Of a stretch of 64,000 nucleotides of DNA, positions 34,913-37,166 are shown piece after piece. Source of the DNA: Abditibacterium sp. (GTDB taxonomy: Bacteria > Armatimonadota > Abditibacteriia > Abditibacteriales > Abditibacteriaceae); contig OZ251992.1 of NCBI GenBank assembly GCA_965246885.1, forward strand, positions 2,208,001-2,272,000. Reading direction: 5' to 3'. Numbering within the stretch: the stretch's first letter is position 1; each line of letters starts with the position of its first letter. The position numbers are program-made.

Positions 34913-37166
34913 ACCCGACGAGCCGGTGACAGGACGCTGACGGCGGGTGTTGTCAATCAGGGCGTCCACCGACTCCTGCAGCAACCGCTTCTCGTGGTTG
35001 ATGATGGATTCGGGCGCCTTGATTTCGGTGATGCGCTTCAAGCGGTTGTTGCGGTTGATGATACGACGGTAAAGGTCGTTCAGGTCGGACGTGGCAAAGC
35101 GCCCGCCGTCGAGTTGCACCATCGGGCGCAGTTCGGGTGGCATGACGGGGATGACTTCCATGATCATCCATTCGGGGCGGTTCTTCGACTTGCGGAACGC
35201 CTCGACGATCTCCAGCCGCTTGATGAGGCGGCCCCGCTTGGCGCCGGGGGCGGTCTCTTGGACTTGCTTCTTGAGCGTGCGCGATTCGGCTTCGAGGTCT
35301 ATGACTTCGAGCAGACGACGCACGGCGGTCGCGCCCATTCCGGCGTGATACAGGTCGTTGAACTCGCTGCCTATTTTGCTTTGGAGCACTTCGGTCAAAC
35401 GCTGCAAGCCGCGATACTCGCGGTCTTCCAAGAGGCGCTTTGGCTCCAGTTCGTTGAGCAATCCAAGCGCATCTTGCAATTCTTTCTTGCGCTCTTCGGC
35501 ATAAGCGTCGCCGGACATATCCTCGACCAAGCGCTTCTGCTTCACGACATCGTCGGGGGAGATGGTTTCGTCGCCTTCTTCTTGGCGCCCGCGCAGGTCC
35601 TCGTAGATGTCCATGTTGCGCTTGCGCTCCAAGTCGCGCGACTGGTCTATCTCGGTGAGCGCTTCCATCACGCAGTCGCGGATGCGCTCGACGTTCTTGG
35701 AGATCTTGGCTTGGTCGGCGGTGGTGACGATCCAGTGCGAGAAATAAAGTACGCGCTCCAAAAAGCGCGGCGACATATCGAGCAGCAACGCCATCGGCGA
35801 CGGCACGCCCTTGACATACCAGAGGTGCGCGACGGGCGCCGCCAGTTCGATGTGGCCCATGCGGACGCGGCGCACTTTGGAGCGCGTGACTTCCACGCCG
35901 CACCGGTCGCACACGACGCCCTTGAATTTGGACTTCTTAAATTTGCCGCACGAGCATTCCATGTCTTTGGTCGGGCCAAAGATGCGCTCGCAGAAGAGGC
36001 CGTCACGTTCGGGTTTAAACGTGCGGTAGTTGATGGTTTCGGGTTTTTTGACTTCGCCCCGGCTCCATGAGCGGATGTCTTGGGGCGAAGCGATGCCGAT
36101 GCGAAGCAGGTCGAAAGCGGACGCGGTGACGGTTTGCGTCACTTGACGCCCGTTGCCGATGCGCTCGCCAAAAACGCCGCGTTCGATGCGGTCAGAAGCC
36201 GCGCCTTCGACTTGCGGCACTGCGAAAATGTTGGTTTCAGCCATTGAGTGTTAGGGTGGAACAGGGTGTTCCGGTTAGCTGGTGTTCACTTGCAAAACTG
36301 TCTCTTACGAGGGGAAAGGTAGTTGTTTCACGCGCAGTTCAAAGCGTTCAACTTGAAGTTGGAAGCGTTCGAGCGCGGTTTCGACGCGCTCCTTTTGGAT
36401 TCCTTCGCGCTCTTCGAGGCGGGCGACGCGCAGGTTGAGATCATTGACGAGATCAACCAACTTCTCGAAGCCTTCTTGCAAGTCGCCCAAGTCTTGGCGC
36501 GCTTGTCCGACCCTCTCCTTTGTCAAAAATGCGGAGGACAAACCCTCGCCGAGTAACTCCAGAGGGTTCACGGGCGCATCGCCTCTAACTTCGCCTTAAC
36601 GCGTTTATTGAAGGACTGCATGGATTCCGACATACGTTCTAACTCCTCTCCCGTTTCCTTCTGAAGTTGGATGAATTTACGCAGAAGTTCGAGTTCTTCG
36701 GGAGATAACTCTCTTTCTGCTGCGACGGGGACGATTTGTCCCCGCATTGGGCCGGAGAGCAGAACGGCTTCGAGTGTCTCCTCCGTCAGTGATGGAGCTA
36801 TGGTGTAACTCATAATAAAAAGATTTCCCCCATCGGAGCCGCGCCCTCTTTTTCAACGCGGGGCGCGGCCCCGTCTCCTTCTCTTTTCCAACGCGGGGCG
36901 CGGCCCCGTCTCCTTAGCGGTCGAACTCGTCCTCGACTTCCTTGAGTTCCATCGCGTTGCCGTCCACGTCCTCCACTTCGACTTGCAAAGCGAGCGACTG
37001 AAGTTCCTTCACCAGAATCTTGAACGATTCGGGCACGCCCGGTTCCAGACTGGTTTCTCCTTTGACGATGGACTCGTAGGTCTTGACCCGGCCTGCCACG
37101 TCGTCCGACTTGATGGTCAGGATTTCTTGCAGGGTGTGCGCTGCGCCGTAGGCTTCCAAGGCCCAG

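What a model noticed while it worked through the whole genome (the two positions that open the first line are those of the whole stretch)
36305..36813. Two-gene toxin-antitoxin-type cassettes wedged inside the gyrB-gyrA, atpA-atpG and rpoB-rpoC operons
Three of the most conserved bacterial gene pairs are each split in this genome by a compact two-gene cassette on the same strand: gyrB-[g00075 78 aa, g00076 PIN/VapC-like 143 aa]-gyrA (C1:87939-88581, 5 and 18 nt from the flanking genes); atpA-[g02491 85 aa HicA-like, g02490 HicB antitoxin 71 aa]-atpG (C1:2765248-2765717, abutting atpA's end, 11 nt before atpG); rpoB-[g02038 81 aa, g02037 88 aa, overlapping coiled-coil proteins of no known family]-rpoC (C1:2244305-2244813, the place given). 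The cassettes must be co-transcribed with essential genes. They differ in age: the VapBC pair behind gyrB is shared with some relatives, the rpoBC cassette is private to this genome.
Evidence so far: Coordinates, sequences and neighbours: call 117; swissprot.tsv: g00076 best hit '23S rRNA-specific endonuclease VapC20'; pfam.tsv: g02490 HicB_lk_antitox/UPF0150. tblastn on loci of relatives: in G007 gyrB-antitoxin-VapC-gyrA is colinear (68%, 67% identity), in G004, G018, G019 a VapC homologue (56-41%) lies ~400 nt behind gyrB; 11 of 27 family genomes (incl. this one) have any homologue at E<=1e-10 and the four closest relatives (G001, G003, G009, G011) have none. g02037: six-frame search of 31 Abditibacteriia genomes finds only three weak homologues (37-38% identity, E 1e-8 to 2e-6) in G008, G014, G021.
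(Added by a program. Inside this text positions count along the whole contig: contig position 2,208,001 is position 1 of the stretch shown here. "Call 12" and the like, gene names such as g00115 and contig names such as C1 are that model's own, and its searches are not shown. The text may have been shortened before it was handed on; [...] marks where a part breaks off. The agent that wrote the report below was given it as the finding of a first reader that could run no searches.)

Follow-up and report, generated by a model that had tools for sequence, protein, structure and literature searches.

The report
Old two-gene passenger between rpoB and rpoC
Two small helical-protein genes sit between the two large RNA polymerase genes; they are not unique to this genome but belong to an undescribed gene pair that relatives carry at the same spot and that other bacteria of the phylum carry behind other housekeeping genes, with function still unknown.

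Summary
The anatomy is as described. On the minus strand the order is rpoB, ORF1 (81 aa), ORF2 (88 aa, GTGA overlap), rpoC. No Pfam, NCBIfam, PADLOC or PHROGs family fits either ORF. The gyrB-gyrA and atpA-atpG cassettes are also real.

The claim that the rpoBC cassette is private to this genome is wrong. The four nearest relatives have only 82-86-nt spacers. An ancestral pair with repeated loss fits this pattern and is not rejected.

The pair also occurs in 20 of 401 phylum genomes. There it lies behind leuS, metK and acyl-CoA ligases, between nuoD and nuoE, and in front of a HerA-like ATPase. The gene order is always ORF1 then ORF2. No copy turned up in the phage or plasmid searches.

Both genes are under purifying selection (dN/dS 0.06-0.43). 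The models show a beta-hairpin plus one helix for ORF1 and one continuous 80-residue helix for ORF2. Neither looks like a toxin or a DNA-binding fold.

I read it as a promoterless, translationally coupled accessory pair, probably forming a coiled-coil complex. "TA-type" rests on architecture alone. All three operon junctions are variable slots among the relatives. The scan had earlier noted other rpoB-rpoC slot genes on other DNA.

The parts
36914..41170 (-). rpoB (1418 aa), upstream flank of the cassette
   Evidence: ORF. Pfam RNA_pol_Rpb2 domains 1, 2, 3, 45, 6 and 7, best E 2.4e-121.
36814..36913 (-). rpoB-ORF1 spacer. It holds two tandem copies of a 25-nt G+C-rich hairpin unit (36913-36889 and 36878-36854), then a longer stem and a U-rich tract before the ORF1 ATG.
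   Evidence: Sequence. The pattern occurs only at these two places in the genome. RNA fold -46.3 kcal/mol, z -2.56. No promoter-like site. Relatives without the cassette also carry a hairpin, of different sequence, just after rpoB.
36568..36813 (-). ORF1, 81 aa (P0001). It has the motif EAVLLSGPMRGQIV (family consensus xEAVIISGPRkGEiI.L). The model is a beta-hairpin followed by one long helix.
   Evidence: Alignment A3 of 17 homologues. AF2 pLDDT 85.5, strands at 14-17 and 27-30, helix 38-79. In other members of the family dN/dS is 0.16-0.43.
36305..36571 (-). ORF2, 88 aa (P0002). GTG start inside GTGA, overlapping the ORF1 stop, with GAGG 10 nt upstream. The model is one continuous helix. The conserved C-end is RFqLqVERfELRv.QLP.
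   Evidence: Alignments A1 and A4. AF2 pLDDT 90.4, helix 3-82. A 78%-identical homologue, P0004, and 7 further clusters. In other members of the family dN/dS is 0.06-0.23.
36245..36304 (-). ORF2-rpoC spacer, 60 nt, without a notable structure
   Evidence: Fold -10.2 kcal/mol, z -0.54. No promoter- or terminator-like site.
31502..36244 (-). rpoC (1580 aa), downstream flank
   Evidence: ORF. Pfam RNA_pol_Rpb1 domains 1-5, best E 2e-81.

Best explanation
The place holds two real protein genes of a so-far undescribed two-gene family. In what I searched, the family occurs almost only in Armatimonadota-type genomes.

ORF1 is a short beta-hairpin followed by one helix of about 40 residues. ORF2 is a single helix of about 80 residues with a conserved arginine- and glutamate-rich C-end.

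The pair has no promoter or terminator of its own. It is most likely transcribed by read-through from rpoB into rpoC, with ORF2 translated by coupling to ORF1 through the GTGA overlap.

It is not a recent private insertion. In this bacterial family the pair has most likely sat in the rpoB-rpoC spacer since before the genera split. It has been inherited vertically, has evolved fast and has been lost repeatedly, including in the four nearest relatives of this genome. In other families of the phylum the same pair sits right behind other long housekeeping genes.

I infer that the two products assemble into an elongated coiled-coil hetero-complex. That complex would act by binding or scaffolding, not by catalysis, as a dispensable accessory (passenger) function made at a level set by the host operon.

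Shown: the genes, their relatives, their positions, purifying selection and the predicted folds. Inferred: co-transcription, complex formation, ancestral placement with later losses, and the non-enzymatic mode of action. Unknown: the cellular target.
For: Same pair at the same site. It fills the rpoB-rpoC spacer in 10 of 29 class genomes, in 4 genera. The other spacers measure 81-150 nt (13 genomes), 267-320 nt without ORFs or remnants (3 genomes), or are very short, with a negative estimate from my rpoC-start call (3 genomes).

History. On an rpoB tree of 26 genomes, G000 is sister to four genomes that lack the pair (clade support 100), and presence/absence needs at least 5 changes. The 10 rpoBC copies form one side of a branch in the best ORF2 tree (support 50.9). 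In the ORF1 tree, holding them together is not rejected (AU p 0.395). Each family genome gave a single copy.

Wider family. 8 clusters in 1.84 billion representatives for ORF2. 18 proteins, all unnamed or 'hypothetical', for the ORF1 profile. 20 of 401 phylum genomes, in 13 of 207 genera. Loci came from genome contigs (12) and metagenome contigs (23). The order ORF1 then ORF2 is constant, mostly with a 4- or 1-nt overlap.

Contexts. 14 of 15 distinct Pfam-identified upstream neighbours are co-directional: rpoB, LeuRS, two AMP-binding ligases, NuoD, a MutS-like protein, DUF1501, a TPR regulator, MetK, DUF6785, DUF444, an amidohydrolase, DegT and an ABC ATPase. DUF6062 is the one on the opposite strand.

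Selection. dN/dS is 0.06-0.23 for ORF2 and 0.16-0.43 for ORF1 in 7 pairs of relatives.

Folds. No promoter-like site was found in the spacer.
Against: I have no expression data and no evidence that the two proteins bind each other.

The ORF trees are poorly resolved. The G024 copy groups with copies from leuS and MutS contexts, so repeated insertion at this site cannot be excluded.

No dN/dS could be computed for the G000 lineage itself, because its only close homologue, P0004, is known as protein only.

The G000 copy departs from the family consensus in both motifs.

GC3 of both ORFs (0.41-0.65) is far below that of rpoB (0.63-0.82 where at least 1.8 kb of rpoB was read) in the cassette-bearing genomes. 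This could mean foreign origin rather than low codon adaptation.

Three of the 10 copies look damaged: a TGA in ORF2 of G002, a changed C-end in G010, and an ORF1 without the motif in G008.

A patchy, often-lost, coupled pair is also what a toxin-antitoxin or defence module looks like.
Confidence: 0.55

Rival explanations
1. The pair is a new kind of toxin-antitoxin, addiction or anti-phage pair. ORF2 would be a non-enzymatic toxin or effector, neutralised by the upstream and faster-evolving ORF1. Lodging inside essential operons would help it persist.
For: The architecture fits: two small genes, fixed order, and 4- or 1-nt overlaps.

The distribution is sparse with frequent loss: 20 of 401 genomes, and at least 5 changes within the family. 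Four genomes carry two copies.

The upstream gene evolves faster than the downstream one.

The same genome has VapC20-like and HicB-like pairs wedged into gyrB-gyrA and atpA-atpG in the same way.
Against: No toxin, antitoxin or defence family matched beyond coiled-coil noise.

ORF2 is predicted as one soluble 80-residue helix. ORF1 matched no DNA-binding family by sequence, and the fold searches of its model gave no clear match.

No promoter of its own was found for autoregulation.

No copy was found in the viral contig collection (ORF2 alignment A2) or among 72,556 plasmids (one ORF1 protein, L044).

The position is stable across genera: rpoBC in four genera, and leuS in two genera plus another MAG.
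Confidence: 0.22
2. In this bacterial family the pair is a lineage-specific partner of RNA polymerase, placed between rpoB and rpoC so that it is made together with the core subunits.
For: It sits in the rpoB-rpoC spacer in four genera and is kept under purifying selection.

The scan's earlier notes read some other rpoB-rpoC slot genes in other phyla this way. Those notes are unchecked.
Against: The pair is missing from 19 of 29 genomes, including the four nearest relatives.

Outside the family the same pair sits behind leuS, metK, ligases and nuoD, with no link to RNA polymerase genes.

Its GC3 is far below that of rpoB.
Confidence: 0.08
3. The history is the reverse. The pair is a mobile unit that has entered the rpoB-rpoC spacer, and other junctions, several times independently. 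It is not an ancestral resident that was lost many times.
For: The pair occupies at least 10 different junctions across the phylum.

The G024 copy groups with copies from other contexts.

GC3 is low in every host.

In L048 a diverged duplicate of about 95 nt of the upstream gene's 3' region lies 36 nt after ORF2. An insertion event could leave such a mark.

The atpA-atpG and gyrB-gyrA junctions hold unrelated occupants in different relatives.
Against: No terminal repeats, target duplications or shared flank motifs were found at 21 loci, apart from L048.

No recombinase is linked to the pair.

It is single-copy and always at the same junction within the family.

A single clade of rpoBC copies is not rejected.

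No copies were found in the phage or plasmid searches.
Confidence: 0.15
4. The two ORFs are chance open frames in an expanded non-coding spacer.
For: They are short, G+C is low, and they have no family hit.
Against: Homologues of both ORFs were found in dozens of loci and in different contexts. They share conserved motifs and have dN/dS well below 1.
Confidence: 0.01

Closest known systems
Type II toxin-antitoxin modules (such as the VapBC-like and HicAB-like pairs in this same genome)
   Same: Two small adjacent genes with overlapping stop and start. Patchy distribution with frequent loss. The same 'wedged into a conserved operon on the same strand' position as the VapC20-like and HicB-like pairs at gyrB-gyrA and atpA-atpG.
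   Different: No toxin or antitoxin family or fold. Both products are elongated helices. No promoter of its own was found. No copy was found in the phage or plasmid searches. The site is stable across genera.
Small accessory subunits of bacterial RNA polymerase (delta, epsilon, omega; named from recall)
   Same: A small protein encoded within the RNA polymerase gene cluster.
   Different: Present in only 10 of 29 relatives, and linked to quite other genes outside the family. No sequence similarity appeared in the Pfam or NCBIfam scans.
ZapA/ZapB cell-division pair (architecture recalled, not from a call)
   Same: One partner has a small N-terminal beta element plus a long coiled-coil helix. 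The other is an all-helical coiled-coil protein of about 80 residues. Pfam ZapA was found in none of 31 class genomes and none of a 151-genome phylum sample, while it rings in 4 of 14 control genomes.
   Different: No ZapA or significant ZapB Pfam hit (ZapB only at E 0.009 for one member). No ZapA among the best 60 PDB sequences for the ORF1 profile. The fold searches matched only the long helix. The pair is too sparse to be the phylum's general ZapA substitute.
Other 'slot' genes between rpoB and rpoC, and passenger genes in the ribosomal-protein operon, noted earlier in this scan (e1-2305175, e1-1181068, e1-817533, e1-2462469)
   Same: Lineage-specific, fast-evolving small genes sit inside the rpoB-rpoC gap. 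In this same genome, same-strand passengers sit in another conserved operon.
   Different: Those are unrelated proteins in other phyla, and a sequence look-up found no look-alike. Here the occupant is a conserved two-gene family that is also found at other junctions.

Membership tests
Type II toxin-antitoxin system | Two small adjacent, co-oriented genes, often with overlapping stop and start | tested here: met
   GTGA overlap in the window. A 4- or 1-nt overlap in most homologous loci.
Type II toxin-antitoxin system | Toxin of a recognised toxin family or fold (PIN, RelE/ParE, MazF, HicA, Doc and others) | tested here: not met
   No hit in Pfam, NCBIfam, PADLOC or PHROGs beyond coiled-coil noise. 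The AF2 model is one continuous helix, residues 3-82.
Type II toxin-antitoxin system | Antitoxin with a DNA-binding domain that autoregulates the pair's own promoter | tested here: not met
   ORF1 matches no DNA-binding family. Its model is a beta-hairpin plus one helix. No promoter-like site in 36100-37100, though that is a consensus scan only.
Type II toxin-antitoxin system | Toxicity of one product, neutralised by the other | not testable with these tools
   Needs expression tests.
Type II toxin-antitoxin system | Patchy, mobile distribution (several copies, plasmids or phages, strain-specific sites) | tested here: inconclusive
   Sparse (20 of 401 genomes), with 2 copies in 4 genomes. But it is single-copy at one fixed site across four genera of the family, and no viral or plasmid copy was found.
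RNA polymerase accessory subunit | Kept throughout the lineage that uses it | tested here: not met
   Present in 10 of 29 genomes. Absent from the four nearest relatives.
RNA polymerase accessory subunit | Physical association with the RNA polymerase core | not testable with these tools
   The complex is too large for the complex tool. It needs a pull-down.
ZapA (PF05164) / ZapB (PF06005) | Sequence match to the family model | tested here: not met
   No ZapA hit for ORF1 proteins at E<=1 or E<=0.05. No ZapA among the best 60 PDB matches of profile A3. ZapB appeared only at E 0.009 for one ORF2.
ZapA (PF05164) / ZapB (PF06005) | Shared fold | tested here: inconclusive
   Foldseek and VIA-align matched only the long helix, Z<=5.9.
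HicAB (the atpA-atpG cassette of the finding) | HicB-type antitoxin domain and HicA-type toxin domain | tested here: inconclusive
   The 71-aa protein matches UPF0150 at 5.3e-10 and HicB_lk_antitox at 1.4e-8, both above their cut-offs. The 86-aa protein has no Pfam hit at E<=0.01 and no PDB hit.
VapBC (the gyrB-gyrA cassette of the finding) | PIN-domain toxin | tested here: met
   The 143-aa protein matches solved VapC20 (5wzf) at E 1.2e-7 over residues 8-138, although Pfam PIN was not reported at E<=0.01.

The most novel reading that the evidence does not exclude
The junctions of essential operons in this bacterial family (rpoB|rpoC, atpA|atpG, gyrB|gyrA, and the ribosomal-protein cluster noted earlier) would be heritable landing slots for promoterless same-strand cassettes. 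The ORF1/ORF2 pair would be the first member of a new class of non-enzymatic, coiled-coil addiction or defence pair. It would persist by lodging where deletion or polarity is costly, and it would draw its expression from housekeeping transcription.
Probability: 0.2. Interest if true: 0.7.

Novelty: new variant of a known kind. Interest (0 to 1): 0.5.

Why it matters
The result corrects an 'orphan, private' call. A weak 37%-identity hit turned out to mark a conserved, syntenic gene pair.

It defines a two-protein family with no Pfam or NCBIfam model. Both proteins are under purifying selection, so the family is a candidate for small-protein biology in a poorly studied phylum.

It also shows that three of the most conserved gene junctions in bacteria are variably occupied slots across one bacterial family. 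That bears on how tolerant essential operons are to passenger genes, and on how such passengers are expressed and retained.

Tried and rejected
Complex prediction of ORF1 with ORF2, using alignments A3 and A1: no verdict (score 0.11, mark 0.32). It counts neither for nor against binding.

Fold searches of the ORF1 model: Foldseek against the PDB gave nothing at E<=0.001. VIA-align wide gave only long-helix matches, Z<=5.9.

ESM Atlas with a typical ORF1: no usable hit.

ZapA/ZapB idea: no sequence support.

HerA link. In three genomes of another family a diverged pair lies just upstream of a HerA-like ATPase (DUF87), with a 4-nt overlap in two of them. However, 4 of 7 orthologous ATPase loci lack the pair, and the 31 class genomes have no such ATPase. 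I therefore treat it as one more junction, not as a functional partner.

Remnants: a profile search of all spacers found no decayed copy in the genomes without the pair.

Insertion scars: there are no inverted or direct terminal repeats shared between loci. The hairpin repeat after rpoB is local, with 2 copies in the genome.

Paralogues in the own genome: none.

The search for related loci with the broad alignment A1 failed for lack of a conserved stretch. The narrower A2 worked.

Literature. Four searches turned up nothing on genes between rpoB and rpoC in this group or on this family. I saw search listings and abstract starts only and read no paper. Subscription journals are not covered.

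Earlier-findings look-up by sequence: nothing.
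Full report
WHAT IS THERE. On the minus strand of the window, rpoB (41170..36914) and rpoC (36244..31502) are separated by 669 nt.

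The gap holds, in order:
- a 100-nt structured leader, with two tandem copies of a 25-nt G+C-rich hairpin unit found nowhere else in the genome;
- ORF1 (36813..36568, 81 aa);
- ORF2 (36571..36305, 88 aa), whose GTG start lies inside GTGA, overlaps the ORF1 stop, and has GAGG 10 nt upstream;
- a 60-nt unstructured spacer before rpoC.

No sigma-70-like promoter was found in 36100-37100. The only minus-strand terminator-like site is a weak 5-bp stem inside ORF2. G+C drops to 0.505-0.565 across the cassette. Neither protein matches a family in Pfam, NCBIfam, PADLOC or PHROGs beyond weak coiled-coil noise. Neither has a paralogue in the genome.

THE OTHER TWO CASSETTES OF THE FINDING. gyrB-[78 aa][143 aa]-gyrA and atpA-[86 aa][71 aa]-atpG are as described. 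The 143-aa protein matches solved VapC20 at E 1.2e-7. The 71-aa protein matches HicB-like and UPF0150 models. The 78-aa and 86-aa partners match nothing.

Both junctions vary among relatives. The HicAB-like pair is at atpA-atpG in G000, G006, G007 and G009 (64-80% identity). A different pair, of 91 aa plus 93-99 aa, is there in G010 and G012. A 168-252-aa ORF is there in G018 and G019. Most other genomes have spacers of 8-131 nt. Behind gyrB, the 78-aa ORF plus the VapC-like ORF lie in G000, G007, G004 and G018, and the VapC-like ORF alone matches in G019. Two other genomes have spacers of 604 and 698 nt without it.

NOT PRIVATE. A six-frame search of the 31 class genomes with ORF2 gave weak hits in G008, G014, G021, G002 and G027. 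Reading those loci showed that the hits in G008, G014 and G021 lie between the end of rpoB and the start of rpoC. Each is preceded by a gene that shares the ORF1 motif.

I then fetched the rpoB 3' end of every class genome (found in 29 of 31) and measured the spacer. The pair is present in 10 genomes: G000, G002, G004, G007, G008, G010, G012, G014, G021 and G024. These fall in genera g1, g3, g4 and g5.

Thirteen genomes have spacers of 81-150 nt that hold only a hairpin of varying sequence. Three have 267-320 nt without ORFs. Three distant genomes have very short gaps; there my start-codon estimate gave negative values. A profile search of all spacers found no decayed remnant in the genomes without the pair.

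Three of the ten copies look damaged. ORF2 of G002 has an in-frame TGA. ORF2 of G010 has a changed C-end. ORF1 of G008 lacks the motif. In G012, two further ORFs have been added between rpoB and ORF1, and ORF2 is expanded to 142 aa.

HISTORY. On an rpoB tree of 26 genomes, G000 is sister to G009, G001, G003 and G011 (clade support 100). Those four all have 82-86-nt spacers. Presence and absence of the pair need at least 5 changes on the tree.

The ORF1 and ORF2 trees are poorly resolved. In the best ORF2 tree the ten rpoBC copies are one side of a branch (support 50.9). Holding them together in the ORF1 tree costs 2.3 log-likelihood units (AU p 0.395).

Each genome of the family gave one copy only, always at this junction. 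This fits one old placement followed by vertical descent and repeated loss. Repeated insertion is not excluded.

A WIDER FAMILY. ORF2 has one close homologue (P0004, 78%) and seven further clusters among 1.84 billion representatives. The ORF1 profile finds 18 proteins, none with a name other than 'hypothetical'. The profile matches 20 of 401 genomes of the phylum, in 13 of 207 genera, and four of those genomes have two copies.

Pattern scans gave 12 loci in genome contigs and 23 in metagenome contigs. A few of these records carry non-Armatimonadota labels, which I did not verify.

In these loci ORF1 precedes ORF2, mostly with a 4- or 1-nt overlap. The neighbours differ:
- LeuRS, then the pair, then a GHL15 hydrolase. 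This holds in two loci of near-identical sequence, and the pair again lies behind leuS in two genera of another family.
- An acyl-CoA ligase, then the pair.
- NuoD, then the pair, then NuoE. The ligase locus and this one are in the same genome.
- The pair also lies behind MetK, a MutS-like protein, DUF1501, a TPR regulator, DUF6785, DUF444, an amidohydrolase and DegT.

Fourteen of 15 distinct Pfam-identified upstream neighbours are co-directional, mostly 6-220 nt away; one lies about 690 nt away.

No copy was found in the viral contig collection (searched with the ORF2 alignment A2) or in 72,556 plasmids (searched with one ORF1 protein). No shared terminal repeats flank the pair. The one oddity is L048, where a diverged duplicate of about 95 nt of the ligase gene's 3' region follows ORF2.

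THE PROTEINS. In seven comparisons of related loci, dN/dS is 0.06-0.23 for ORF2 and 0.16-0.43 for ORF1. Both are therefore real genes under constraint, and the upstream one evolves faster.

AlphaFold2 with the family alignments gives two confident models. ORF1 is a beta-hairpin (14-17, 27-30) plus one helix (38-79), pLDDT 85.5. ORF2 is one continuous helix (3-82), pLDDT 90.4.

Conserved positions in ORF2 are mostly arginines and glutamates plus one phenylalanine, in the stretch R..RLE..R..DR......RF..EVER.ELRL..LP. Profile searches against solved structures hit only coiled coils. The structure searches matched only the long helix.

HOW IT MOST LIKELY WORKS. Shown: two constrained genes with tight coupling, no detectable promoter, and a position inside the rpoBC transcription unit.

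Inferred: they are transcribed by read-through from rpoB. ORF2 is translated by coupling to ORF1. The two elongated helices assemble into a coiled-coil complex that acts by binding, not catalysis.

The cellular target is unknown. The pair is dispensable, since 19 of 29 relatives lack it. Outside this family it is not tied to RNA polymerase genes, so I rate an RNA polymerase partner as unlikely. A toxin-antitoxin-like or defence role remains possible, but it rests on architecture and patchiness only. The features that define type II TA modules were tested and not met: a toxin fold, a DNA-binding antitoxin, and a promoter of its own.

CONTEXT FROM THE SCAN. Earlier notes, unchecked by me except as stated, record other unrelated small genes in the rpoB-rpoC gap of other phyla. 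They also record same-strand passenger genes in the ribosomal-protein operon of this same genome. My own counts at three junctions agree that conserved operon junctions in this family are open, variably filled slots.

VERDICT. 'Private' is wrong. 'TA-type' is unproven for this pair. The finding is a new, sparsely distributed two-gene family of unknown function, riding in essential operons. Interest is moderate.

Noticed in passing
L040:435-1430 (G012, between rpoB and ORF1): Two extra same-strand ORFs sit between rpoB and the pair: 166 aa with a DUF6438 match, and 128 aa with no family. They stretch the rpoB-rpoC gap to about 1.9 kb. ORF2 in this genome is 142 aa, with repeated 'RV.RLE' units.
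   Followed up: partly
L090, L091, L083 (atpA-atpG spacers of G012, G010, G011): A different small pair fills the atpA-atpG junction where G000 has the HicAB-like pair. It has a 91-aa protein with 'WGTGD...RQWRDFY...NPSA.GR' followed by a 93-99-aa protein. G011 has the first gene only.
   Followed up: no
L098, L105 (atpA-atpG spacers of G019, G018): A 168-252-aa ORF beginning 'MALSQ.EQ.L..RIGFDE' occupies the same junction in two genomes of another genus.
   Followed up: no
L137, L140, L142, L143 (gyrB of G003, G004, G012, G010): The open frame through the gyrB 3' end is 1020-1178 aa, against about 730 aa in the other genomes. This suggests a large in-frame insert such as an intein.
   Followed up: no
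L048:1940-2135 and 2715-2910: A diverged copy of about 95 nt of the 3' region of the upstream acyl-CoA ligase gene lies 36 nt after ORF2. It carries a 1-nt deletion and lacks the last 20 codons. It may be a mark of how the pair arrived there.
   Followed up: partly
L025, L027 (rpoB-rpoC spacers of G019, G018): These spacers of 267-297 nt hold a long near-perfect inverted repeat ('gtcattctgagc...gctcagaatgac') instead of the gene pair. It may be a small hairpin repeat element.
   Followed up: no
L133:4618-6968, L134:1069-3607: In another family of the phylum a diverged copy of the pair abuts a HerA-like ATPase (DUF87, 646-670 aa). In one genome minC-minD follow on the same strand. Four of 7 orthologous ATPase loci lack the pair.
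   Followed up: partly
class and phylum genomes (G handles): Pfam ZapA (PF05164) was found in none of 31 class genomes and none of a 151-genome phylum sample, while it rings in 4 of 14 control genomes.
   Followed up: no
L038/L039 (G014): In this MAG the 3' end of rpoB and the 5' part of rpoC are each split over two frames. These are probably assembly or sequencing errors.
   Followed up: no
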